From NCBI GenBank assembly GCA_045605345.1, contig JAZUPT010000016.1, positions 4,363-68,362 of the forward strand: a DNA stretch of 64,000 nt, in the 5' to 3' direction. Origin of the DNA: Candidatus Spyradenecus sp. GTDB taxonomy: Bacteria > Verrucomicrobiota > Kiritimatiellia > RFP12 > DVOR01. Below the pieces are notes generated by a model. It was not told the origin of the DNA. It ran no database searches and saw only the letters and a list, made by a program, of their open reading frames with translations. Position 1 is the stretch's first letter. The number at the start of each line of letters is the position of its first letter. A program made the position numbers and the translations under genes. Positions 7,637 to 54,620 of this stretch are shown piece by piece.

Positions 7637-8944
7637 ATGCAGACACTTGATTGGGACCAACTCCTAAATGACAGCCGCCTGCGCACGGATGAAGCGGGCA
7701 AGCCAACTTGTTATCATCAGCCTGAGACGCCTCCACGTACCCCTGCAGAGGCAGACATCCAGCGCATCATCTTCTCTTCTCCTTTCCGACGTCTCGCTGG
7801 CAAGACACAAGTTCACCCCTTGGCAAAGGTGGACTATGTCCACAATCGTTTGACGCACTCTTTAGAGGTTGCTGAAACTGGCGCAGGCTTGGCCCAACGT
7901 CTCGCCGCGCGTTTATCCCTCTCTCCCTCACAAATCTCCGCCTGTTCACTCCATGTAAAGGCAGCCTGCCTCGGCCATGACATTGGCAATCCACCCTATG
8001 GTCACGCGGGTGAATACGCCATTCAATCTTGGGTAGAAGAACATCTGGAAGCACTCGGAAATTTACTCGCCGAAGATGCCTCCAAGCCCAATTCCCCCTC
8101 CTTGGCGGCTCTCCTTGAAGATTTCCGTAAATTTGATGGGAATGCACAAGCCTTTCGCCTCTTGAGCCACCCAGACCCCAGCGATGGCGCCTATTTTCGT
8201 CTCACCTGTGCGAGCTTAGGGGCATTGATTAAATATCCGCGCTGCGCCGTCGACACCCCTACCGCAAAATTCTCTTGCTTCCAAACCGCGCGACCGTGTT
8301 TTGATTGTGTCACCACTGCGCTCGGGCTCAATGGATCCGATGGCGTCCATCGTCACCCGCTTTCCTATCTCACCGAAATCGCTGATGATATCTGCTACTG
8401 CGTCACCGACTGCGAAGATGCGGTACTCATGGGAATTTTGGACGAACGTCTTGTGCGCGATTGGTATCTCCAACTCCTTGAAGATCCCAACAGTGTCTCC
8501 CTCAAGCCTGGTGCCACCGTCTCCTTCTTACGCGCAAAGGTGATTGGGGATTTGATGCACTGCTTCACAGAAGACCTCGTACGCGCCTTCCAAACGCCTG
8601 AATCCCTCGCCACCTTTGAGCAGACCTCACCCACGTGGCAACGCCTTCAGACGTTAAAGCGCAACTACAAAATCGTCTTTGATGACGCCGCCAAGGTGCG
8701 CAAAGAACTCAATGCCCAAGCGCACTTCCACCACGTCTTGGACACCTTTTTCGCCGTTACGCGTAATGTCCGCACCCAACGCCCCACTTACAGTGAAAGC
8801 CTCTTGCGCAAATATACCTTTGGCGAGGCATTTATTGCCGCTCATCGTGAAAAGCCCTTCCTCTGGTGGTTGCACACCATGTTTGACTTTGTCACTGGCA
8901 TGACCGATGCCTATTTACATCGTTTTAGCGAGGGATTGCGTTAA
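7637..8944 (+). CDS. dgt: dGTP triphosphohydrolase-like HD-domain protein (Dgt family)
   Basis: VDYVHNRLTHSLEVAETG...LGHDIGNPPYGHAGE matches the HD/dGTPase signature. It lies 23 nt downstream of the SNF2 gene on the same strand. Confidence 0.8.
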   Translation: MQTLDWDQLLNDSRLRTDEAGKPTCYHQPETPPRTPAEADIQRIIFSSPFRRLAGKTQVHPLAKVDYVHNRLTHSLEVAETGAGLAQRLAARLSLSPSQISACSLHVKAACLGHDIGNPPYGHAGEYAIQSWVEEHLEALGNLLAEDASKPNSPSLAALLEDFRKFDGNAQAFRLLSHPDPSDGAYFRLTCASLGALIKYPRCAVDTPTAKFSCFQTARPCFDCVTTALGLNGSDGVHRHPLSYLTEIADDICYCVTDCEDAVLMGILDERLVRDWYLQLLEDPNSVSLKPGATVSFLRAKVIGDLMHCFTEDLVRAFQTPESLATFEQTSPTWQRLQTLKRNYKIVFDDAAKVRKELNAQAHFHHVLDTFFAVTRNVRTQRPTYSESLLRKYTFGEAFIAAHREKPFLWWLHTMFDFVTGMTDAYLHRFSEGLR

Positions 8945-9036
8945 GGCCTTACGCCACTTTGCCCAATAAAACAATCGCGGAAGCCAAGGCCTCCGCGATT
9001 CGTCTTTGATGATGCATCTTAGCGTGCAGATGCAAA

Positions 9037-10230
9037 TTAGTCCTTCGCCAAACCGCCCGTCGACGTTTCCTTGTAGAGATTCGGCAAGTCATGCCCCGTC
9101 TCCAACATCGTCCGGACAACCTTGTCAAAGGAGATATTGTGTCGGCCATCAGAAAGACACGCATACATATTCGCATCCATTGCACGCGCCGCCGCGAAGG
9201 CATTGCGTTCAATACAAGGAATCTGCACTAACCCGCATACGGGGTCGCACGTCAAGCCCAAGTGGTGCTCTAAGCCCATTTCAGCGGCGTACTCAATCTG
9301 ATTCGGCGACCCACCAAAGATCTGATTCACCGCCGCAGCCGCCATTGCGCACGCCACACCAATTTCCCCCTGGCATCCCACTTCAGCGCCAGAGATGGAA
9401 GCATTATGCTTCACAATCGCACCTATCAGACCTGCCGTAGCCAACGCACGAATGATGCGCTTCTCTGGCACCTCATGGTGTTTGTAAAGATAGTAGAGCA
9501 CCGCCGGCAGAACGCCCGCACTGCCGCAGGTGGGTGCCGTAACAATCAAGCCCGTGCCAGCCGCGTTCTCTTCCGAGACCGCGAGTGCATAGGCGAAGAG
9601 CAGACCGCGTCCGCGCAAGCCTTCACGCATCCCTTCTGCACGGCGAAAATAGGCGCTGGCCTTGCGTTGCAGGCCCAAGCCACCCGGCAATACGCCCTCT
9701 GCTTCAAGGCCACGCTCCACGGCATCACGCATCACTGCCCAGACTTCACGCAAATGGTCAAAGACTGGCTGTCCTTCATACTCGAGCACGTACTCCCAAA
9801 AGATGCGCCCCGTCTCACCATACCACTTCAAAATACCGTCCATGGTGGTGTACGGATAGGCCACCGGCGTCACCTTTGTTTGGCCAAGCCCCTCACTGAG
9901 GAAGCCGCCGCCGATGCTGTACACTTCCCATGCAGTAATGGTCGTGCCGCCATCGGTCAGTCCTTCAAACTTCATCCCATTCGGGTGAAACGGCAGGAAG
10001 GTGTTGGGCTCCCAAACGATCTCCGTACGTTCCGCGCCGAGCACATCGAGTATCGCCTTATCGGTGAGGTGACCTTTACCTGTTGCAGCCAATGACCCAT
10101 AGAGCGTCACGCGGAATTTCACCGCTTGCGGAGCGCGCTTTAAGAAGTCCAGCGCTGCACGGCGTGGTCCCATGGTATGCGAACTCGAGGGGCCGATGCC
10201 GATTTTGAAGATGTCTTTCACCGAATCCAT
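9037..10230 (-). CDS. sdaA: L-serine dehydratase, iron-sulfur dependent, single chain
   Basis: The N-terminal IFKIGIGPSSSHTMGP motif, the central GSAGVLPAVL and the C-terminal GGEVGCQGEIGVACAMAAA match the SdaA/SdaB family. Confidence 0.85.
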   Translation of the reverse strand: MDSVKDIFKIGIGPSSSHTMGPRRAALDFLKRAPQAVKFRVTLYGSLAATGKGHLTDKAILDVLGAERTEIVWEPNTFLPFHPNGMKFEGLTDGGTTITAWEVYSIGGGFLSEGLGQTKVTPVAYPYTTMDGILKWYGETGRIFWEYVLEYEGQPVFDHLREVWAVMRDAVERGLEAEGVLPGGLGLQRKASAYFRRAEGMREGLRGRGLLFAYALAVSEENAAGTGLIVTAPTCGSAGVLPAVLYYLYKHHEVPEKRIIRALATAGLIGAIVKHNASISGAEVGCQGEIGVACAMAAAAVNQIFGGSPNQIEYAAEMGLEHHLGLTCDPVCGLVQIPCIERNAFAAARAMDANMYACLSDGRHNISFDKVVRTMLETGHDLPNLYKETSTGGLAKD

Positions 10231-10231
10231 C

Positions 10232-11143
10232 TCAATGTCTCCTTAAGGCGCGGCGACGGAAAAGTTCTCGCACGGCGTCTACGTAGGGTTTATCTGTTGC
10301 GATGTCTAACAAATCAATGCCCGCTCGGCGGAATAAGCGCGTCTCATTCAGACGTTGTTCCGCTGCCTGTTCAGCAAATTGACGGCGCACCTCTGGAGAG
10401 GCCGTATCCACCAATACCGTGCGCCCGCTCTCGGGGTCAAGCAATTCCACGATACCGACATTTGGCAACGTCACTTCTGCCGGATCCGTCACACGGCACG
10501 CAATCACATCATGACGACGCGAGAAGGCGGTCAACTCTTTCTCAAACCCCTCATCTTGGAAGTCTGACAGCAGGAAGACCACCGCCTTTCGATGTTGCGT
10601 CGCAGAGACAAAGCGCAGTGCCGCACGGATATCGGTACCTTCAGTCGTTTCCTCTGTGGCCAAAACCTCGCGCACGAGGCGTTGCACCGCAGTGCGTCCC
10701 TTCCGCGGAGGAATAAATTGAATCACGCGATCTGAGAAGAGGACCAAACCCACCTTATCATGGTTGTCCATCGCCGTCATTGCAAGGAGCGCGGTCAGTT
10801 CTGCTGCACGCGCCGCCTTTGAACGCCCCCCTGTGCCAAAGCTCTGGCTGCCAGAGACGTCAACCATAAAGAGCACGGTCAATTCGCGTTCTTCGCTAAA
10901 GCGCTTAACAAAGGGCTCTCCCGTGCGCGCCGTGACATTCCAGTCAATCGCACGCACGTCATCTCCGGGTTGGTAGGGACGCGCCTCGTCAAATTCGATG
11001 CCTTGCCCCTTGAAGACCGAGTGGTAATCCCCACTCAATTGGTCATCCAAGAGACGTCGGGTCAGGATGCGAATACGCCTGACCTCTTTCATCAATGCTT
11101 CGGTATTGATATCCATCTGCTCAATAGCCTCTGCGGAATGCAC
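10232..11143 (-). CDS. DUF58 (vWA-like) protein, partner of MoxR ATPase
   Basis: DYHSVFKGQGIEFDEARPYQPGDDVRAIDWNVTAR...LTVLFMVDVSGS matches the DUF58 signature. It is 5 nt downstream of moxR. Confidence 0.75.
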   Translation of the reverse strand: MHSAEAIEQMDINTEALMKEVRRIRILTRRLLDDQLSGDYHSVFKGQGIEFDEARPYQPGDDVRAIDWNVTARTGEPFVKRFSEERELTVLFMVDVSGSQSFGTGGRSKAARAAELTALLAMTAMDNHDKVGLVLFSDRVIQFIPPRKGRTAVQRLVREVLATEETTEGTDIRAALRFVSATQHRKAVVFLLSDFQDEGFEKELTAFSRRHDVIACRVTDPAEVTLPNVGIVELLDPESGRTVLVDTASPEVRRQFAEQAAEQRLNETRLFRRAGIDLLDIATDKPYVDAVRELFRRRALRRH

Positions 11144-11148
11144 CCACC

Positions 11149-12135
11149 TTACGGCACAGGCACTTCGGTTAAGAGACGATCAATCACGCTGTCCGGCGTG
11201 AGATTTTCCGCTTCAGCTTCATAAGAGAGCAACAAACGATGACGCAGCACATCATGTGCCACATCCTTCACATCCTGCGGTGTGGCATAGGTGCGCCCAC
11301 GCAAAAGGGCCGTAGCACGTGCCGCCAACTTCAGGCAAATCGAAGCACGTGGCGACGCGCCCAACTGAATCGCCCCTTCAAGGCTTTCCAAGCCCTTGAA
11401 CAACGTCGGATTACGCGTTGCGAACACCAAATCCAAGATGTAATCATCCACCTTCGCATCGCAGTGCACCTCGCCCGCCGTGCGACGCAAAAGCGCGATG
11501 TCTTCAGACGTTACGCAACACGTCGGTGCGGGCACCGCCACGGCTTCAGGACGCGTATTGCCATTCATGATGCGGCGTTCATCCTCACGGCCAGGATGTT
11601 TCACCACGCACTTGAACATAAAACGGTCCGTCTGCGCTTCAGGCAAAGGATATGTGCCTTCCTGTTCAATCGGGTTCTGCGTTGCCATCACCAAGAAGGG
11701 TTCTGGTAATGCATACGTGGTATCACCCAAGGTCACCTGACGCTCCTGCATCGCTTCAAGCAGTGCCGACTGCACCTTCGCCGGTGCGCGGTTGATTTCG
11801 TCAGCAATCAAGAGATGCGTGAAGACCGGCCCCTTGCGCGGCGTGAAGGTGCCTTCTTTGTGGTTGTAGGTCAAACCACCCGTCACATCCGCAGGCAACA
11901 AATCTGGCGTAAAGGAAATACGACGCGTGTCCAATCCCAATGCCGCCGCCAAAGCACGCACAGCCGTAGTCTTTGCCAAGCCAGGCACACCTTCCAAAAG
12001 AATGTGGCCACCCGTCATGAGTGCAATTAAAAGGCTATCCAAAAGATGCTCTTGCCCCACAAGCATCTTATTCACTTCGCCACGAATCGCCGCAAGAATC
12101 TGCGTGCACCGAGTAGAACCATCTGCAGAAGACAT
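11149..12135 (-). CDS. MoxR-family AAA+ ATPase
   Basis: HILLEGVPGLAKTTAVRALA (Walker A), LIADEINRAPAKVQSALLEAMQERQVT, MoxR-type C-terminus. Confidence 0.85.
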   Translation of the reverse strand: MSSADGSTRCTQILAAIRGEVNKMLVGQEHLLDSLLIALMTGGHILLEGVPGLAKTTAVRALAAALGLDTRRISFTPDLLPADVTGGLTYNHKEGTFTPRKGPVFTHLLIADEINRAPAKVQSALLEAMQERQVTLGDTTYALPEPFLVMATQNPIEQEGTYPLPEAQTDRFMFKCVVKHPGREDERRIMNGNTRPEAVAVPAPTCCVTSEDIALLRRTAGEVHCDAKVDDYILDLVFATRNPTLFKGLESLEGAIQLGASPRASICLKLAARATALLRGRTYATPQDVKDVAHDVLRHRLLLSYEAEAENLTPDSVIDRLLTEVPVP

Positions 12136-12269
12136 AAAAATCCTTTCAAATTCAACTGTATTACCCTACATTATAGCTTATCTTCACCCACTCCTCAAGT
12201 ATTCTTCACACCAAATTCACCCCTGCATCTTCTCCCACCTCCGCGCCTCCGGAGGTCTGCTAAACAAGC

Positions 12270-12625
12270 GGGGGTGTAGAGGTGAATCGCCGTATGGAAG
12301 GTGGGCTTGAAAGTCGCCTGCAGTCCTCACCAGCCGAGGGTTTAACTGTCACAGAGGGCAGAAATAAGCCGCCGTGGTGAGGCGAGGGGACGGCTACTTC
12401 CCGTGCCATCGGCGAGGGATGATTCCCGTGTCTTCGGCGAGAGAGCATTCGGGGGTTCGGGGGGTACCCCCGTCGTTTGGTACCACTCTGGACAGCAGAT
12501 GGCTAAGAGACGGAGAGGGTGACGTGGGGGAGCACGCCGCCCCACACCCCTGCGGCAGGACTAGTCCTGCACGCTACGCATCCTAACGGATGCTTTTACT
12601 GGTGCTCACGAGGATGAAAAGAAAG
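12270..12625. repeat. mosaic intergenic repeat cluster A: two GTGARYCGCCG modules plus a three-hairpin module shared with 50.9 kb
   Basis: 12523-12614 (gtgggggagcacgccgccccacac ccctgcggcaggactagtcctgcacgctacgcatcctaacggatgcttttactggtgctcacgagga) is ~90% identical to 50887-50981. 12346-12375 ctgtcacagagggcagaaataagccgccg matches 51136-51165 ctgtcacaaaggcagaagtgagtcgccg and 43668-43690. There is no ORF longer than 77 aa in the 870-bp gap. Confidence 0.55.
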
Positions 12626-12765
12626 AGCTCTGGGGACGAAGCGCACAGCGACTGGTTAGAAGACGGCATTTATCGTAGCCACGGCCCACTGCGGCCGTAG
12701 TGCACTCTGAATAACGGGTGGTTGAAATGGACGAAGCGGGACTGTGGGTGGCTAAAATCTGGGCA

Positions 12766-12822
12766 TTATCTATCCTTAATCTATCTGATAGACGGGCCGC
12801 AGCCCGTCTGATCTATCCCTTA
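12766..12822. repeat. CTATC-flanked hairpin module (inverted copy of the core of the 38-kb tandem repeat)
   Basis: atctatccttaatctatctgatAGACGGGCcgcaGCCCGTCTgatctatccc is the reverse-complement homologue of ctatccataacctatctgacAGACGGGCcgttGCCCGTCTcatctatctctatccc at 38370-38420. Stems are identical and loops differ. Confidence 0.55.
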
Positions 12823-12986
12823 TAGGCTTCTGGGAGAGGCTCCTTCGGCACGGCACCGAGGTGGCGATTCGGAAGGTGGCACCCTATCCCGCGTTTAAGC
12901 CACTCAAAACGCCCTAATCCCCTTTACTTTTTCACGATTTTCTTGCCTTTCGCCTTCTTTTTTACTTCACGTTTTTTCTTTTTTAT

Positions 12987-12994
12987 TGTATACT
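12987..12994 (+). promoter_or_regulatory. putative extended -10 (TGTATACT) for pyrF
   Basis: tgtATACT lies ~30 nt upstream of the MADLIV start. It favours the ATG at 13024 (RBS aaagga 13009-13014) over the ORF-track start at 13006. Confidence 0.35.
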
Positions 12995-13023
12995 AAATGT
13001 GTTGAATGAAAGGATGCATTGTC

Positions 13024-13737
13024 ATGGCAGATTTAATTGTTGCACTTGATGTTTCGACCAAGGCAGAAGTCGCAGATGTGCTGCGTCGACTTGGGGATTC
13101 TGTCGATTTTTACAAAATTGGCCTTGAATTATTCTCGGCAGAGGGCCCGGATGTGGTGAAGTTGGTGAAAGATGCGGGCAAGCGCGTCTTTCTTGACTTG
13201 AAGCTTCACGACATTCCTCGCACGGTAGAACGCGCAGTGAAGTCTGGCGCGACCCTCGGCGTTGATTTGATGACCATTCACTCTACGGGTGGCAAGGCCA
13301 TGATTCGTGCAGCGGCAGAGGCGGCAGCGTCCTTTGGTGCGGCGGCACCGAAGATTTTGGCGGTGACGGCTTTGACCTCGCTTGACCAGGATGACTTGAC
13401 TGATTTGGGCATTACGCGTGCAATGCCAGACCAGGTGGAAGCAATGGGCTTGCTGGCGATTACCAACGGTGCCGACGGCATTGTGTGTTCGCCCAAGGAA
13501 GTGGCCAACATGAATAAGGTCTTAATCCCTGCGGCAAATGGTCGCAAGGTCGTCTTTGTCACCCCTGGCGTCCGTCCCGCAGGTGCCGCAGTGGGCGATC
13601 AGAAGCGCGTTGCTACACCCGCTGGCGCCGTGCGTGATGGCTCCACCCACTTGGTGGTGGGTCGTCCGATTCTTGAAGCAGTCGATCCCGTGGCGGCAGC
13701 AATTGCCATCCGCGCTGAGATGGACTCTGTCCGCTAA
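13024..13737 (+). CDS. pyrF: orotidine-5'-phosphate decarboxylase
   Basis: MADLIVALDV...FYKIGLELF...FLDLKLHDIP matches OMP decarboxylase motifs. The ORF track starts 18 nt earlier at 13006, but the RBS and promoter position favour 13024. Confidence 0.85.
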   Translation: MADLIVALDVSTKAEVADVLRRLGDSVDFYKIGLELFSAEGPDVVKLVKDAGKRVFLDLKLHDIPRTVERAVKSGATLGVDLMTIHSTGGKAMIRAAAEAAASFGAAAPKILAVTALTSLDQDDLTDLGITRAMPDQVEAMGLLAITNGADGIVCSPKEVANMNKVLIPAANGRKVVFVTPGVRPAGAAVGDQKRVATPAGAVRDGSTHLVVGRPILEAVDPVAAAIAIRAEMDSVR

Positions 13738-13745
13738 GGAGCGGC

Positions 13746-14195
13746 TTGAAAAAGTCGAGCACATTCGTTTCAAAGGGCACCCCAACGCCACTCGAAGTGG
13801 CGGGTGCCCCTGATTATGAAGTGCCAACAACTTACACCTCACACCTTCACCCGGCTGATTTACCGCGTGACTATGGCATGTCTGGCGCAGTGGGCGCTTA
13901 CGAAGTAAAGCCCCTCGCCGGATTTTTGCAAAAGACGCTCAATGCCTTAGAGCAACAGCTTGGCACGGGCGACTCGGCCGAAGCACTGGTCGTTGCGGCA
14001 TTAGACCATTTAATGCCCGCGGCAGAGCGTTATCGCCTCGCAGTAGAATCCGTGAGCGCAGGCATTATCACCCTCTCCCTCGCGCGCAAGGGTGATCGTT
14101 ATCTCTACAATCGAACCTTAGTCCCCAAACTCAAAACCGCATTAGCGCCACATTTAGGCGCGGTGCGCATCCAATTGACGGACCGCATGCGATGA
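13746..14195 (+). CDS. hypothetical protein (weak DUF721/DciA-like C-terminal pattern), translationally coupled to kdtA
   Basis: TTG start at 13746 is preceded by AAGGAG (13736-13741). The stop overlaps the kdtA ATG (ATGA). The N-terminus is disordered and there is no confident homology. A nested GC hairpin lies at 13773-13811 inside the putative 5' coding region, so the real start may be the ATG at ~13869. Confidence 0.4.
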   Translation: MKKSSTFVSKGTPTPLEVAGAPDYEVPTTYTSHLHPADLPRDYGMSGAVGAYEVKPLAGFLQKTLNALEQQLGTGDSAEALVVAALDHLMPAAERYRLAVESVSAGIITLSLARKGDRYLYNRTLVPKLKTALAPHLGAVRIQLTDRMR

Positions 14196-15487
14196 AATGG
14201 TTCCTCTATAACTTCCTTTTTACCATCGCTTACATTTGCATGATGCCCAAATTCCTGTGGCGTATGGCGCGACGTGGCGGTTATGTCAATCGCTTCGCCG
14301 ACCGCTTCGGATGCTATCCGCCAGAGATTTTGGCCCGCTTTAATGATGGTCGAAAGCGCTTTTGGATTCACGCGGTCTCCGTGGGCGAAGTGGCGGTGGC
14401 AGGCCAGCTCATGGAAGAACTGCGCCAACAGTCCCCCGACATCGCCTTCGTCCTCTCGGTGACGAGCAGTACAGGGTGGACGCAAGCGCAGAAACAGGTC
14501 CGCGACAATGACATTTTGATTCATAATCCATTGGATATGCCGCGCTGCGTCAAGCGCGCATTAGACGCCATCCGTCCAGAGGCCTACATCATCACAGAGA
14601 CCGAACTCTGGCCGAACATCATCCGTCTGGCAACCCAACGCGACATCCCTGTTTTCTTGGTAAATGCCCGTATCTCCGACCGAAGCGCGCCGGGATACCG
14701 CCGCTTGAAGTGTTGGTTCGGGCCTGTACTCAACATGATGACGCGCATCTATGCCCAGTCCGACCTTGATGCCCAGCGTCTCTGCGATGCAGGATGTGAC
14801 GCCGAACGCATCGAAGTCACCGGCTCCATGAAGTTTGACGTGGCCCATCGCAACGAAGCCAAAGAAGCCGAACTGCGCGACTATCTGACCAGCGCAGGCT
14901 TCTCCTCCAATGCACGCATTCTGCTCGGGGGCTCCACCTGGCCAGGCGAAGATGCCTTCCTTTTAAAGGTTTACGCCAAAGCTCGCGCGATTGACCCCAA
15001 CTTACGCTTAATCCTCGCCCCGCGCCACTTTGAAAAGGCCGACGCAGTGGAAGCAAACATCCGTGCAGCGGGCTTCACATGCCTCCGCCGTTCACGCGTA
15101 GCCACCCCCACCCCCATGCCAGAAGACACCGTTCTGCTCGCCGATACCACAGGAGAACTGATGGGGCTCTATGGCCTTGCCGACGTGGCATTTGTGGGTA
15201 AATCCCTCTATGAACATGGCGCTCAAAACATGATTGAACCCTGCCTCTGCGGATGTGCGACCGTAGTCGGCCCCAATACGGAAAACTTCCGTCCAGTGAT
15301 GAGCGACTTATTAGCACATGAAGCCATTTTGCAAGCCCCCGATGAAGCCGCGCTTGAAAAAACGTTGCTTGAGCTTTTGGAAGACCCCACCTCAGCGAAA
15401 GCCCTTGGTGGACGGAGTTCAAAAGCCGTCGCGTTACGTTGCGGTGTCACACCGCGTCTCGTTTCAGATTTGCTAAAGCGCATCTAA
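14192..15487 (+). CDS. waaA: 3-deoxy-D-manno-octulosonic acid transferase (Kdo transferase)
   Basis: N-terminal membrane anchor plus WIHAVSVGEV, and the C-terminal glycosyltransferase domain (VGKSLYEHGAQNMIEP), are typical of KdtA/WaaA. Confidence 0.85.
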   Translation: MKWFLYNFLFTIAYICMMPKFLWRMARRGGYVNRFADRFGCYPPEILARFNDGRKRFWIHAVSVGEVAVAGQLMEELRQQSPDIAFVLSVTSSTGWTQAQKQVRDNDILIHNPLDMPRCVKRALDAIRPEAYIITETELWPNIIRLATQRDIPVFLVNARISDRSAPGYRRLKCWFGPVLNMMTRIYAQSDLDAQRLCDAGCDAERIEVTGSMKFDVAHRNEAKEAELRDYLTSAGFSSNARILLGGSTWPGEDAFLLKVYAKARAIDPNLRLILAPRHFEKADAVEANIRAAGFTCLRRSRVATPTPMPEDTVLLADTTGELMGLYGLADVAFVGKSLYEHGAQNMIEPCLCGCATVVGPNTENFRPVMSDLLAHEAILQAPDEAALEKTLLELLEDPTSAKALGGRSSKAVALRCGVTPRLVSDLLKRI

Positions 15488-38100: not shown

Positions 38101-38118
38101 GGCGAAACCCGCTACACA

Positions 38119-38669
38119 GCCGCTTATCTATCCCTCACCTATCTGAGCGGCAGGCCATCCTCCTCAAACAGCGCAACCTCATGCATCAGTGAAGGCGAAG
38201 TGAAGCGCTTTCTCCACTGAAGGGGCCCCATTAGGCGCCCGCGGCGAGGGGCTTATCTATCAATCACCTATCTGAGCGGCAGGCTGTTGCCTGCCTTATC
38301 TATCCTGAAGCAAGAAAGCCGCCATCGATGGATAATAAAAGCATAGAAGATAGATGAGACGGGATAGAGATAGATGAGACGGGCAACGGCCCGTCTGTCA
38401 GATAGGTTATGGATAGGTTATCAGATAGGTTATGGATAGATTATTTAAGGGGACTCGCAGGTGGTCGCCTCATGGTATCTGCGGCGCAGCCGCTTATCTA
38501 TCGATCACCTATCTGAGCGGCAGGCTGTTGCCTGCCTTATCTATCCCGAGGCAAGAAAGTTTCCATCAATGGATAGATAAAAGCATAGAAGATAGATGAG
38601 ACGGGATAGAGATAGATGAGACGGGCAACGGCCCGTCTGTCAGATAGGTTATGGATAGATTATTTAGGG
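38119..38669. repeat. tandem array of ~190-bp CTATC/GATAG-rich units (two near-identical full copies with 239-bp period, plus a partial third) in a convergent intergenic region
   Basis: Copy 38252-38450 and copy 38491-38669 are >95% identical. A partial copy lies at 38119-38175. Each unit has hairpin GGCAGGctgttGCCTGCC, hairpin AGACGGGCaacgGCCCGTCT, and direct GATAGATGAGACGGG x2 and CAGATAGGTTATGGATAG x2-3 motifs. Confidence 0.8.
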
Positions 38670-38821
38670 CTCCTCGCCACGCCACCACTTCACACTCTGA
38701 AGCTATCCTCCTCTCTATCACCGCGGCCTCGTGGCGAGACGGGGATGCGGCGCAGGACTGCATGTAAAGTTTCCGCTATCCAAATGGGCCCACGAAGGCT
38801 GTGGGACACGCGATGCGGGGA

Positions 38822-43355: not shown

Positions 43356-43420
43356 GCACATAATTGTAACACAAAGTGCGCGCGCAATGCAAATGAGGGC
43401 ACCGAGGAGAGGTGGGAGGA

Positions 43421-43695
43421 TTACATGGGGGCGACGCCGCTCGTGGTTAGCGATCATAAACCATAAAGATTAGAGCAGCGATGAGACCTCCGAAGGCACG
43501 CCCCTTAGCATATGGCCACTTACAGACCGTCGCTTTTCTGCGCCCCCGCTCCCCCAGTAGTGTGATAATGATGCTCCCCAGTCACTGGTCTAAAGGGCCC
43601 ACCTAATGACGGGGGGCACCCTGCGAAGGGACACATGGGAGAAGGCCCCGAGGAGCTCCCCTGCTAAGGGGACAGAAATAAGCCGCCATTTCTCT
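43421..43695. repeat. intergenic region B carrying degenerate copies of the dispersed repeat modules
   Basis: 43425-43452 catgggggcgacgccgctcgtgg corresponds to gtgggggcgacgccgcccccac (50887). 43668-43690 ggacagaaataagccgcc corresponds to gggcagaaataagccgccg (12354). Confidence 0.4.
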
Positions 43696-50731: not shown

Positions 50732-50884
50732 CGTTTGTATCCTTTCGCATTACGAGTTCACACACGGGGTGACAACGCCTTCAGTATAGCAAAGCATTAG
50801 CGCAGGCTAATGCGACTTATTCCATCAATTTCACGCCTGTATACAAGACGTTACAGGTGGAGCGCCAAAGGAAGGCGGTGGATG

Positions 50885-51172
50885 ATGTGGGGGCGACGCC
50901 GCCCCCACACGCCCCTGCGGCAGGACTGAGTCCTGCACCCTACGCATCCTGACGGATGCTTTTACTGGTGCTCACGAGGAGGAAGCAGAAGTGAGCCGCC
51001 GAGGAGGTGACCCGTGGGGTGAGGCGGGGATGGCAGGCTACGGCCTGCCAATCAGATAGGTGAGCGGCTAACGCCGCAAAGCCGCGCAAGCGCGGCCCTC
51101 CTGAGGTGATGAGGTACATAGCCAGCTCACACTTGACTGTCACAAAGGCAGAAGTGAGTCGCCGAGGTTATA
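50885..51172. repeat. mosaic intergenic repeat cluster C (three-hairpin module, two GTGAGYCGCCG modules, inverted CTATC-hairpin module)
   Basis: 50887-50981 is homologous to 12523-12614. 50984-51030 and 51136-51170 carry cagaagtgagYcgccgagg. 51034-51066 ggcaggctacggcctgccaatcagataggtgagcgg is the reverse complement of cacctatctgagcggcaggctgttgcctgcc in the 38-kb tandem unit. Confidence 0.55.
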
Positions 51173-51206
51173 TCGTGGCACCGCCCACCGCGGCGGTGGT
51201 TAGCAC

Positions 51207-51239
51207 AAAAAAGAGGCACCCTTTCGGATGCCTCTTTTT
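51207..51239 (-). terminator. rho-independent terminator of pckG (bidirectional form)
   Basis: aaaaaagaggcaccc-tttc-ggatgcctcttttt is an A-run/hairpin/T-run, 19 nt after the pckG stop. Confidence 0.6.
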
Positions 51240-51257
51240 CGGTAATCGGTCGAAGAC

Positions 51258-54234: not shown

Positions 54235-54309
54235 GGTCGGCCTCGCGGGGATCGAACCCGCGACCCCAACATTAAAAGTGTCGTGCTCTACCAACTGAGC
54301 TAGAGGCCG
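54235..54309 (-). tRNA. tRNA-Lys (anticodon TTT)
   Basis: Minus-strand sequence CGGCCTC-TA-GCTC-AGTTGGTA-GAGC-A-CGACA-CTTTTAA-TGTTG-GGGTC-GCGGG-TTCGATC-CCCGC-GAGGCCG-A-CCA folds as a cloverleaf with a 7-bp acceptor stem, a TTCGATC T-loop, the anticodon loop CTTTTAA and an encoded CCA. A hairpin (agacctgcaa...ttgcaggtct, 54201-54230) lies immediately 3'. Confidence 0.9.
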
Positions 54310-54330: not shown

Positions 54331-54530
54331 AACGACTCCTCAAGACGCAAGCAAATTCTTTACGCAAGCGGCGTGGCCGAGGGCTAATGCCGTGGGGATT
54401 AAACCGCAACACACGCCAGACACTCAAAAAAGAGGTTCAAGTCCCAAGTGTATGGATAAAATTCAATGTACGGGGAGTTCTTCCTTTACTTTTGCATAGC
54501 TTTGGTTAGGAAAAAGGGCGAAATCAGCTT

Positions 54531-54620
54531 AAGTTTGTAACAAACTGGATTTAAGTTTGTAACAAACTGAGATTGAGTTTGTAACAAACTGGATTTGAGT
54601 TTGTAACAAACTGAGATTGA
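54531..54620. repeat. four tandem 22-23-bp direct repeats, each with palindrome GTTTGTAACAAAC, alternating TGGATTT / TGAGATTG tails (2 x 45-bp super-unit)
   Basis: aagtttgtaacaaactggattt / aagtttgtaacaaactgagattg / agtttgtaacaaactggatttg / agtttgtaacaaactgagattg. The repeats lie in an AT-rich segment about 220 bp upstream of tRNA-Lys. Confidence 0.8.

What the first reader, a model, noticed from the sequence alone, without database searches (positions are those of the whole stretch)
12523..12614. Candidate ~90-nt structured small RNA present in two copies (12523-12614 and 50887-50981), ending in a terminator-like hairpin plus TTTTAC
The two copies align end to end at ~90% identity. The only differences in hairpins 2 and 3 are in the loops, and hairpin 1 gains a base pair by a compensatory change (ggggg/ccccc vs gggg/cccc). 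Both copies are in the same orientation relative to the element and end with GCATCC-loop-GGATGC-TTTTAC, resembling an intrinsic terminator. This is what a duplicated sRNA gene, or a conserved 3'-UTR or terminator cassette, would look like.
Basis: partly seen in the sequence, partly recalled or inferred. Interest (0 to 1): 0.5.

Follow-up and report, generated by a model that had tools for sequence, protein, structure and literature searches.

The report
Interspersed hairpin repeat, not sRNA gene
The two look-alike 100-base hairpin sequences are copies of a small repeated DNA element scattered dozens of times through the spacers between genes in this uncultured ruminant-gut bacterium's lineage, not a pair of small-RNA genes; this is an ordinary kind of element, although this family has not been described before.

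Summary
Window 12517-12618 and 50881-50984 (both + strand) are 88.7% identical, and each forms three hairpins, the last followed by TTTTAC. The interpretation does not hold. The 21-nt core occurs about 40 times in one sister genome (Kiritimatiellae MAG RGIG7486, ~95% identical to the window) and 3 times in a second species. Copies lie on both strands, often in loose tandem, and all lie between the provisional ORF calls apart from four ORFs that are probably spurious. The family is mosaic: a ~50-nt constant 3' module (GAGTCCTGCACGCTAC-GCATCC-loop-GGATGC-TTTTACTGGTGCTCAC) plus a purine tract, joined to interchangeable 5' hairpin modules. Conservation continues 12 nt past the T-run. Copies favour divergent (promoter-side) spacers, show no orientation preference, and differ between strains: copy B is missing from a 96-97% identical metagenome contig, with the breakpoint in the hairpin-1 loop. 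Neither window copy has a consensus promoter. Each sits between predicted flanking promoters or terminators. Hairpin 3 (6 bp, U4) is weak next to the strong terminator just downstream of PEPCK. There is no Rfam match, conserved ORF or usable covariation. In the sister genome the module also caps a ~0.8-1 kb non-coding repeat that carries an outward promoter. Verdict: a new family of a known kind (BOX/BIME/REP-like interspersed repeat), of modest interest.

The parts
12517..12609 (+). Copy A of the repeat (solo module): 5' purine-rich lead-in, hp1, hp2, hp3, T-run and conserved tail
   Evidence: nhmmer 79 bits; CM 103.4 bits. An orthologous copy sits at the same position in the sister genome (L018 2589-2393, 78% identity).
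12524..12545 (+). Copy A hairpin 1, degraded: GTGGGG...CCCCAC, 6 bp, -10.1 kcal/mol
   Evidence: The family consensus is GTGGGGGC-loop-GCCCCCAC.
12555..12570 (+). Copy A hairpin 2: GCAGGA-CTAG-TCCTGC, with 1 nt deleted in the loop relative to the consensus
12578..12597 (+). Copy A hairpin 3 (GCATCC-TAAC-GGATGC, 6 bp, -8.1 kcal/mol) plus TTTT
12598..12609 (+). Copy A conserved tail ACTGGTGCTCAC, 3' of the T-run; nearly invariant across the family
12610..12628 (+). Purine-rich tract that follows the module in every copy (variable sequence)
50881..50975 (+). Copy B of the repeat (solo module, close to the family consensus)
   Evidence: 84 bits; 116.7 bits; 93.8% identical to the consensus
50887..50908 (+). 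Copy B hairpin 1, consensus form: 9 bp, -19.2 kcal/mol
50920..50936 (+). Copy B hairpin 2: GCAGGAC-TGA-GTCCTGC
50944..50963 (+). Copy B hairpin 3 (GCATCC-TGAC-GGATGC) plus TTTT
50964..50975 (+). Copy B conserved tail ACTGGTGCTCAC
50976..50995 (+). Purine-rich tract following copy B
50897..51170 (.). Strain-variable segment: 274 nt that contain most of copy B and further hairpin modules. A 96-97% identical metagenome contig (L035) has 68 unrelated nt here. The left breakpoint falls in the hp1 loop.
12671..12700 (+). REP-like companion module (TATCGTAG-CCACGGCC-CACTGC-GGCCGTAG). In other copies of the family this module type replaces hp1 and the left arm of hp2.
43415..43440 (+). Orphan fragment of the module: lead-in plus hp1 5' arm and loop, truncated just after the loop

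Best explanation
The two sequences are 'solo' members of a dispersed, mosaic family of hairpin-rich intergenic repeats. The family is specific to a narrow lineage of uncultured ruminant-gut Kiritimatiellae. It is a small interspersed repeat of the BOX/BIME/REP kind, not a two-copy sRNA gene.

Each unit has a constant ~50-nt 3' module: the right arm of hp2, the linker CACGCTAC, hp3, TTTTACTGGTGCTCAC, and a purine-rich tract. This is joined to interchangeable GC-rich 5' hairpin modules.

Shown: high copy number; both orientations; mosaicism; strain-level gain, loss or replacement; breakpoints at hairpin loops; intergenic location with a preference for divergent spacers; no consensus promoter at either window copy.

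Inferred: the family spread as non-autonomous DNA, at least partly as the terminal cap of a ~0.8-1 kb non-coding repeat seen in the sister genome. Its modules are then reshuffled and eroded by hairpin-mediated template switching or illegitimate recombination at the stem-loops. The two window copies lie in spacers bounded by predicted flanking promoters and terminators, so they are probably silent or only incidentally transcribed. If they are transcribed on the + strand, hp3 with its U4 tail would act at most as a weak terminator or insulator.
For: Copy number and taxon: the 21-mer core has 42 exact matches in 31 stretches, 39 of them in MAG RGIG7486 and 3 in RGIG9925, and in no other of ~185,000 species genomes. 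nhmmer raises this to 47 full copies.

Mosaic anatomy: constant 3' module with swapped, duplicated or inverted 5' hairpins.

Similarity between copies is concentrated in a ~120-150 nt unit.

Context: modules occupy 8 of 16 divergent, 7 of 92 co-directional (3 same, 4 opposite orientation) and 1 of 13 convergent spacers, p~0.006 against spacer length. There is no bias towards neighbouring gene strand.

Turnover: the MoxR-pyrF spacer is 613 nt in the window and 1163 nt in the ~95% identical L018. Copy B is absent from L035, with the junction in the hp1 loop. L036 has a module in the opposite orientation in the same spacer.

No promoter upstream of A or B; the only promoter-like sites are those of MoxR (12198-12170, - strand) and pyrF (12966-12994, + strand), which bracket copy A. 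A strong terminator-like hairpin immediately downstream of the PEPCK stop codon (16-bp stem, U6, -25.6 kcal/mol) lies between PEPCK and copy B.

Hp3 is only 6 bp with U4 and -8.1 kcal/mol. Conservation runs 12 nt beyond the T-run. The T-run is broken in diverged copies: L036 has GCTCTTCTGG and L033 has GCGCTTAC.

No Rfam match. No conserved ORF.
Against: No transposase, target-site duplication or clean empty site was found, so the way the family spreads is inferred, not shown.

The stems are very well kept (97% of cells paired in canonical copies). One hp2 pair shows A-U, G-U or G-C variants, so some selection on structure, in RNA or ssDNA, cannot be excluded.

In L012, L016, L018 and L019 a conserved promoter reads directly into a module. 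At least that subfamily may therefore be expressed as a discrete ~100-nt RNA.

Promoter scanning uses an E. coli-type consensus that may not fit this phylum. No expression data are available.
Confidence: 0.72

Rival explanations
1. Multi-copy ('sibling') sRNA gene family. Each module is transcribed from its own promoter on the module strand and ends at hp3-UUUU. The constant 3' half acts as a terminator or chaperone-binding domain, and the variable 5' hairpins carry different target-pairing seeds.
For: The layout of variable 5' part and constant 3' hairpin plus U-run resembles modular sRNAs. In four MAG loci a conserved TTGACW-N17-TACACT promoter, whose hexamers are kept while the spacer sequence varies, lies 45-108 nt upstream of a module and would give a ~100-nt RNA. 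Folding z-scores are -2.2 and -3.6.
Against: The reverse strands fold equally well (z -2.9 and -3.8), as any palindrome-rich DNA would. Neither the window copies nor most MAG copies have a promoter. Sequence 3' of the U-run is as conserved as the hairpin. The U-run is lost in diverged copies. Copies are truncated or replaced between near-identical strains. Covariation has no power because the effective sequence number is 1.11. There is no Rfam family.
Confidence: 0.1
2. A selected terminator or insulator cassette. The module is kept in spacers to stop read-through between neighbouring transcription units, and in particular to cap the outward promoter of the long repeat.
For: The consensus scanner flags hp3 plus TTTT as terminator-like in both copies. 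In L016, L018 and L019 a module lies between the long element's outward promoter and the next co-oriented gene, which in L018 is the MoxR ortholog. The pyrimidine-rich complement of the purine tract could serve as a Rho loading site for antisense transcripts (inference only).
Against: Hp3 is far weaker than the strong terminator-like hairpin downstream of PEPCK: 6 bp, U4 and -8.1 kcal/mol against 16 bp, U6 and -25.6 kcal/mol. Only 1 of 13 convergent spacers holds a module, and there is no orientation preference in co-directional spacers. Eight of 12 outward promoters are uncapped. Copy A lies between two divergent promoters and copy B is antisense to both neighbours. The terminator-like counts in the two spacers are not above shuffled expectation.
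Confidence: 0.1
3. A true REP/REPIN system. The hairpins are recognised as ssDNA and copied by a single-copy RAYT (HUH/Y1) transposase encoded elsewhere in the genome.
For: The hairpins are GC-rich extragenic palindromes present in dozens of copies. The companion modules have the REP hallmark of a 5' GT(A/G)G tetranucleotide followed by a palindrome (TATCGTAG-CCACGGCC..GGCCGTGG). CTAC/GTAG abuts hp3 and hp2 in the constant module.
Against: Modules are not organised as fixed-spacing inverted doublets. Close pairs are direct, at 130-372 nt, and inverted pairs occur only around the 0.66-0.9 kb core. tblastn found no Y1 transposase in ~290 kb of held DNA, although this is a weak test because the queries were recalled from memory. 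Long unpaired stretches are as conserved as the stems.
Confidence: 0.08

Closest known systems
BOX elements of Streptococcus pneumoniae (boxA-boxB(n)-boxC composite repeats; PMC3049150)
   Same: Both are small intergenic composite repeats built from modules whose number and order vary between copies and strains. Both are predicted to fold into stem-loops if transcribed, are present in tens to hundreds of copies, are clustered with other repeat families, and vary in length between strains (PMC3049150 as read; here).
   Different: There is no sequence relationship and the phylum is different. The repeat here is GC-rich and G/purine-skewed rather than built around TIRs. No TIR or TSD was found for the solo module. 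The preference here is for divergent spacers.
[quoted passage not shown]
   Same: Both are interspersed repeats whose structure ends in a stem followed by a U-rich tract.
   Different: SPRITE has an 18-bp stem and a long U-rich tract and is enriched close to the 3' ends of genes. The module here has a 6-bp stem with U4, conserved sequence beyond the U-run, and avoids convergent spacers.
REP / BIME / REPIN elements with RAYT transposases (PMC3116915; BIMEs of E. coli, from my own knowledge)
   Same: Both are extragenic GC-rich palindromes assembled into mosaics with other motifs. Singlets appear to be decayed remnants. Companion modules carry a 5' GT(A/G)G followed by a palindrome.
   Different: REPINs are inverted REP doublets at a fixed short spacing, associated with a RAYT gene. 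Neither feature was found here. The constant module here is ~50 nt and mostly non-palindromic conserved sequence.
MITEs and foldback-type non-autonomous elements
   Same: In L016, L018 and L019 two modules in inverted orientation bound a 0.66-0.9 kb non-coding core, like long terminal inverted repeats.
   Different: Only 3-4 of at least 16 core copies have the second, inverted module. No TSD and no parent IS or transposase was found. The window copies are solos with no partner.

Membership tests
Bacterial sRNA gene | Own promoter at a fixed distance upstream | tested here: not met
   No consensus sigma70-type site upstream of copy A or B. The promoter-plus-palindrome motif found in 12 MAG loci has 0 matches in the window.
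Bacterial sRNA gene | Conservation ends at an intrinsic terminator | tested here: not met
   The 12 nt after TTTT (ACTGGTGCTCAC) are nearly invariant in 47 copies. The T-run is broken in diverged copies.
Bacterial sRNA gene | Structure supported by covariation | tested here: inconclusive
   97% of cells are paired, but the effective sequence number is 1.11 and only 3 cells carry double changes. One hp2 pair varies among A-U, G-U and G-C across subfamilies.
Bacterial sRNA gene | Discrete transcript detected | not testable with these tools
   No expression data are available.
Bacterial sRNA gene | Match to a curated RNA family | tested here: not met
   Rfam 15: nothing at the gathering threshold, and nothing relevant at E<=1.
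Intrinsic terminator / 3'-UTR cassette | GC-rich stem followed by a U-tract | tested here: met
   Hp3 has 6 bp (4 GC) plus TTTT and is flagged by the scanner. It is weak compared with the strong terminator-like hairpin downstream of PEPCK (16 bp, U6).
Intrinsic terminator / 3'-UTR cassette | Located downstream of, and co-oriented with, a gene's 3' end | tested here: not met
   Copy A lies between divergent genes and copy B is antisense to both neighbours. Family-wide, modules occupy 1 of 13 convergent spacers, and orientation in co-directional spacers is 3 same against 4 opposite.
REP/REPIN-RAYT | Short extragenic imperfect palindrome in many copies | tested here: met
   At least 47 copies, 43 of them between the provisional ORF calls; four overlap greedy ORFs that are probably spurious. 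Three GC-rich palindromes per unit.
REP/REPIN-RAYT | Inverted doublets at a characteristic short spacing (REPIN) | tested here: not met
   Close pairs are direct, at 130-372 nt. Inverted pairs occur only around the 0.66-0.9 kb core or irregularly.
REP/REPIN-RAYT | Cognate RAYT (Y1/HUH) gene flanked by the repeats | tested here: inconclusive
   No tblastn hit in ~290 kb of held DNA using queries recalled from memory. The whole genome is not available.
BOX-type modular composite repeat (as a kind, not by homology) | Composite of modules with variable number and order between copies and strains | tested here: met
BOX-type modular composite repeat (as a kind, not by homology) | Terminal inverted repeats and target-site duplication | tested here: not met
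   There is no TIR within solo modules. The flanks are variable purine tracts, and no TSD is visible at the L035, L018 or long-element junctions.
MITE | TIRs related to a resident IS/transposase, plus a TSD | tested here: not met
   No protein family recurs next to the copies. No TSD was found.
Type I toxin-antitoxin repeat (Ibs/Sib or Ldr-like) | Conserved small hydrophobic ORF overlapping the repeat | tested here: not met
   The ORF starting at the ATG inside hp3 gives MLLLVLT followed by 11-133 codons with no conservation and no Shine-Dalgarno sequence.

The most novel reading that the evidence does not exclude
The module is the expressed 3' domain of a promoter-driven ~100-nt RNA. That RNA is carried on, and spread by, a ~0.8-1 kb protein-less repeat whose core looks like a replication-origin or regulator-binding array: 3-5 iteron-like 22-mers, three TTATCAACA DnaA-box-like sites, and phased A-tracts. 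On this reading it would be a non-coding mobile or amplifiable element that plants outward promoters and small RNAs upstream of host genes. The window's copies would be remnants of such insertions.
Probability: 0.08. Interest if true: 0.7.

Novelty: new member of a known kind. Interest (0 to 1): 0.3.

Why it matters
The result removes a false sRNA candidate and replaces it with a defined repeat family: consensus, boundaries and sub-modules. That family can be masked or annotated in Kiritimatiellae genomes from ruminant guts, where no repeat families have been described. These repeats mark hot spots of spacer turnover and rearrangement between strains that are about 95-97% identical. MAG contigs often begin or end within 250-500 nt of a module, which suggests that assemblies break at these repeats (inference from match positions). 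The family therefore matters for assembly, strain typing and comparative genomics of this lineage. The linked long element with outward promoters is the more interesting lead. If it is active, it would rewire expression of neighbouring genes.

Tried and rejected
1. Rfam at the gathering threshold on the window, and at E<=1 on both spacers and on a full long element. Nothing relevant was found.

2. Small-ORF or type I toxin reading. The only recurrent ORF (MLLLVLT...) has no conserved continuation.

3. Y1/RAYT/IS200 transposase search by tblastn in all held DNA. Only noise hits with E>0.5 came back. This is a weak test.

4. Recurrent neighbouring protein families, such as a transposase or Rep. 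None were found; the clusters are orthologs or spurious ORFs running through repeats.

5. Phage or plasmid origin. megablast of 12000-13200 against phages gave no match. The 21-mer is absent from IMG/VR. The six viral hits to TTGTTGATAAC doublets share only DnaA-box-like arrays, not the element.

6. Orientation relative to GC skew or to neighbouring gene strand. Neither is significant.

7. Exact-protein look-ups for the 202-aa protein, PEPCK and MoxR, to fetch other strains. None is on record. PyrF gave three short contigs.

8. The idea that the two copies are direct repeats bounding a 38-kb island. This is rejected: synteny with L018 runs straight through copy A, and the ORF translations read near the two copies (pyrF and a Kdo-transferase-like gene after copy A, uvrB before copy B) look like housekeeping genes.

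9. A clean empty site or TSD. The L035 and L018 comparisons show replacement rather than simple insertion.

Full report
**Observation**

The two sequences exist as described. Window 12517-12618 and 50881-50984, both on the + strand, align with 94 identical positions in 106 columns (88.7%, 6 gap columns). They share a 41-nt stretch that differs only at one loop position, where 0.00 matches are expected by chance.

Each folds into three hairpins:
- hp1: GTGGGGGC..GCCCCCAC
- hp2: GCAGGAC-TGA-GTCCTGC
- hp3: GCATCC-NNNN-GGATGC, followed by TTTTAC

These appear. Within hp2 and hp3 the copies differ only in the loops.

A profile HMM and a covariance model built from 22 canonical family members and run with filters off both find exactly these two copies in the 64-kb window. 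The scores are 116.7 and 103.4 bits. Everything else scores 21 bits or less and is either palindrome self-matching or noise.

Conservation does not stop at the terminator-like hairpin. The next 12 nt (ACTGGTGCTCAC) are almost invariant across the family, and a purine-rich tract follows in every copy.

The hairpin-1 difference is not a compensatory change. Copy B has the family consensus (9 bp, -19.2 kcal/mol). Copy A is an eroded variant with an indel (6 bp, -10.1 kcal/mol).

**What the window is**

The ORFs are chromosomal housekeeping genes: a MoxR-type ATPase, pyrF, a Kdo transferase, uvrB and GTP-dependent PEPCK.

Locus L018, from the Kiritimatiellae MAG RGIG7486 (water-buffalo colon), is syntenic with window 7761-15210 at about 95% identity. 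The window therefore comes from a close relative of that uncultured organism.

**It is a dispersed family, not a two-copy gene**

The 21-nt core GATGCTTTTACTGGTGCTCAC has 42 exact matches in 31 stretches of the species-representative genome collection. Of these, 39 are in RGIG7486 and 3 are in a second ruminant-gut Kiritimatiellae MAG, RGIG9925. No other genome has a match. nhmmer raises the count to 47 full copies in the held DNA.

Copies lie on both strands and are often in loose direct tandem, 130-372 nt apart. All but four lie between provisional ORF calls, and those four overlap ORFs that are probably spurious.

**Anatomy**

Anchored alignments show a constant 3' module of about 50 nt: (T)GAGTCCTGCACGCTAC-GCATCC-loop-GGATGC-TTTTACTGGTGCTCAC, followed by a variable purine tract. 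The hp3 loop is its most variable spot.

The 5' part is mosaic. It takes one of several forms:
- hp1 plus the left arm of hp2, as in the window copies;
- an extra hairpin, GCAGGGG..CCCCTGC;
- a REP-like module, TTTATCGT(A/G)G-CCNCNGCC-CAC(C/T)GC-GGCNGNGG, fused exactly at the hp2 loop;
- an inverted hp1.

Similarity between copies is concentrated in a unit of about 120-150 nt.

**Structure evidence**

Pairing is well kept: 97% of cells are paired in canonical copies. However, these copies are almost identical, with an effective sequence number of 1.11, so covariation carries no weight.

Across subfamilies one hp2 pair varies among A-U, G-U and G-C. Hp3 never varies.

The reverse strands fold as well as the forward strands, with z-scores of -2.9 and -3.8 against -2.2 and -3.6. 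That is what palindromic DNA does, whether or not it is transcribed.

**Context**

Copy A lies between the divergent MoxR (-) and pyrF (+) genes. It sits between their predicted promoters, at 12198-12170 (-) and 12966-12994 (+).

Copy B is antisense to both of its neighbours. It lies between the strong terminator-like hairpin immediately downstream of the PEPCK stop codon (16-bp stem, U6, -25.6 kcal/mol, z -5.8) and the start of the 202-aa gene. No consensus promoter precedes either copy.

Family-wide I used greedy ORF calls of at least 150 aa. Modules then occupy 8 of 16 divergent spacers, 7 of 92 co-directional spacers (3 co-oriented, 4 opposed) and 1 of 13 convergent spacers. This gives p of about 0.006 against expectation from spacer length, but the counts are small and not independent.

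There is no bias towards neighbouring gene strand, and at most a weak trend against GC skew.

This pattern argues against a 3'-UTR or terminator cassette. It also argues against an oriented cis-regulatory leader.

**Turnover between strains**

The MoxR-pyrF spacer is 613 nt in the window and 1163 nt in L018. L018 holds the orthologous copy A at only 78% identity, compared with about 95% in the flanking genes. It also has an additional inverted copy and about 800 nt of AT-rich DNA that the window lacks.

A metagenome contig whose PyrF protein is identical has a different upstream gene (MTHFR) and a 185-nt spacer with no module.

For copy B, a metagenome contig that is 96-97% identical (L035) replaces window 50897-51170 with 68 unrelated nucleotides. 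The shared sequence ends at ...GTGGGGGCGA, inside the hp1 loop.

A more distant relative (L036, 84% protein identity) has a module in the opposite orientation in the same spacer, with the T-run broken (GCTCTTCTGGTGCTCAC).

An orphan hp1 fragment at window 43415-43440 is truncated just after the loop.

In all the cases examined, breakpoints coincide with hairpin loops. This fits hairpin-mediated template switching or illegitimate recombination, but that mechanism is an inference.

**A larger element in the sister genome**

At least 16 loci of RGIG7486, and none in the window, carry a core of about 640 nt that is AT-rich and apparently non-coding. It lies immediately 5' of a module.

The core contains:
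- 3-5 iteron-like 22-mers;
- three TTGTTGATAAC sites (TTATCAACA, one mismatch from the DnaA box);
- phased A-tract/GATA repeats;
- at its far edge, an outward-facing TTGACW-N17-TACACT promoter with a TGn extension, overlapping a TACACTnnnAGTGT palindrome. The hexamers and spacing are kept while the spacer sequence differs between copies.

The promoter motif is present in 12 loci and absent from the window.

In 8 of the 10 informative cases that promoter faces a co-oriented gene. In L012, L016, L018 and L019 an inverted module lies 45-108 nt downstream of it.

The module is therefore also the terminal cap of a longer repeat. In that subfamily only, it forms a promoter-hairpins-U4 unit that resembles an sRNA gene or an insulator. 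No protein family recurs next to the copies.

**Best explanation**

The window's two sequences are solo members of a new family of small interspersed mosaic repeats. The closest kinds are pneumococcal BOX (modular composite) and SPRITE (terminator-like) repeats (PMC3049150) and REP/BIME/REPIN elements (PMC3116915).

Membership of those families in the strict sense is not claimed:
- there is no homology to BOX, and no TIR or TSD;
- there is no REPIN doublet organisation, and no RAYT was found, although that test is weak;
- the SPRITE-like 3'-end enrichment is not met.

Hp3 with U4 is at best a weak terminator. It has 6 bp and -8.1 kcal/mol, against 16 bp, U6 and -25.6 kcal/mol for the hairpin downstream of PEPCK.

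The multi-copy sRNA reading keeps about a 10% probability, mainly because of the promoter-linked subfamily.

**Novelty and interest**

Nothing comparable has been reported for Kiritimatiellae in the searched literature. This is therefore a new family of a known kind.

It is useful for annotation, assembly and strain comparison of this gut lineage, but it is not surprising in itself.

The promoter-bearing, origin-like long repeat is the more intriguing lead. It lies outside this window.

Noticed in passing
L016:1902-2709, L019:6342-7150, L018:2477-3530 (sister MAG; not in the window): A non-coding repeat of ~0.8-1 kb, with at least 16 core copies in RGIG7486. It contains 3-5 iteron-like 22-mers (CACCCAATTTCGCTGAyaTTGsTC), three TTGTTGATAAC (DnaA-box-like) sites and phased A-tract/GATA repeats. 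It is capped by the hairpin module on one end or on both (inverted) ends. The layout resembles a replication origin, yet the element is multi-copy. Unexplained.
   Followed up: partly
L016:2055-2027 (-), plus 11 other MAG loci: A conserved outward-facing promoter, TTGACW-N17-TACACT with TGn, overlapping the palindrome TACACTnnnAGTGT (a possible operator). It faces a co-oriented gene in 8 of 10 cases. The long repeat may therefore act as a portable promoter.
   Followed up: partly
window 38117-38677: A different repeat family: two ~241-nt tandem units rich in TATCTATC/GATAGATA motifs and GC hairpins (GGCAGGC-TGTT-GCCTGCC, GACGGGC-AAC-GGCCCGTC). A related 39-mer occurs at 12759-12797. It is similar to L011:6115-6446. 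It lies where the gene orientation in the window switches from + to -.
   Followed up: no
window 54521-54608: Four tandem 22-nt units (AAACTGGATTTAAGTTTGTAACA-like) about 210 nt from a tRNA gene (54237-54309, - strand). A similar array occurs in L010:3071-3177.
   Followed up: no
window 12250-12392 and 12426-12518: Other repeat modules in the same spacer as copy A. They are shared at 84-86% identity with L007, L012, L019 and L026 and include GGGGnnnCCCCGTCGTTTGGTACCACTCTGGA. The whole spacer is a patchwork of repeats.
   Followed up: partly
window 51206-51241 (- strand): A strong intrinsic-terminator-like hairpin immediately after the PEPCK stop codon: AAAAAGAGGCAUCC-GAAA-GGGUGCCUCUUUUUU, -25.6 kcal/mol. 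The A-tract/U-tract symmetry suggests it could work in both directions. It is a useful benchmark for terminators in this genome.
   Followed up: yes
window 51177-51205 and 12671-12700: REP-like hairpins with a 5' GT(A/G)G tetranucleotide (TATCGTGG-CACCGCC-CACCGC-GGCGGTGG and TATCGTAG-CCACGGCC-CACTGC-GGCCGTAG). The same type is abundant in the MAG and in L035. They may be a genuine REP family with a RAYT encoded elsewhere.
   Followed up: partly
L001:1-700 compared with window 12136-13005: A metagenome contig that encodes an identical PyrF protein has an MTHFR-domain gene, not MoxR, upstream of pyrF, and only a 185-nt spacer. There is a rearrangement breakpoint in this repeat-filled spacer.
   Followed up: partly
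L036:60-460 (reverse complement): In an 84%-identity relative, the spacer upstream of the 202-aa gene carries yet another repeat type: units of ~45-60 nt containing GGACTGC..GCACTGCCAGAGGAGGGAGAAACCACAAAATACAC.
   Followed up: no
window 1-64000: GC skew on the + strand is negative in 14 of 16 4-kb bins (typically -0.03 to -0.15) on both sides of the switch in gene orientation near 38-39 kb. This is unusually pronounced.
   Followed up: no
L105-L110 (IMG/VR contigs): Tandem GTTATCAACAA arrays in AT-rich phage intergenic regions. In L108 they sit next to canonical TTATCCACA boxes, which supports reading TTATCAACA as a DnaA-box variant.
   Followed up: partly
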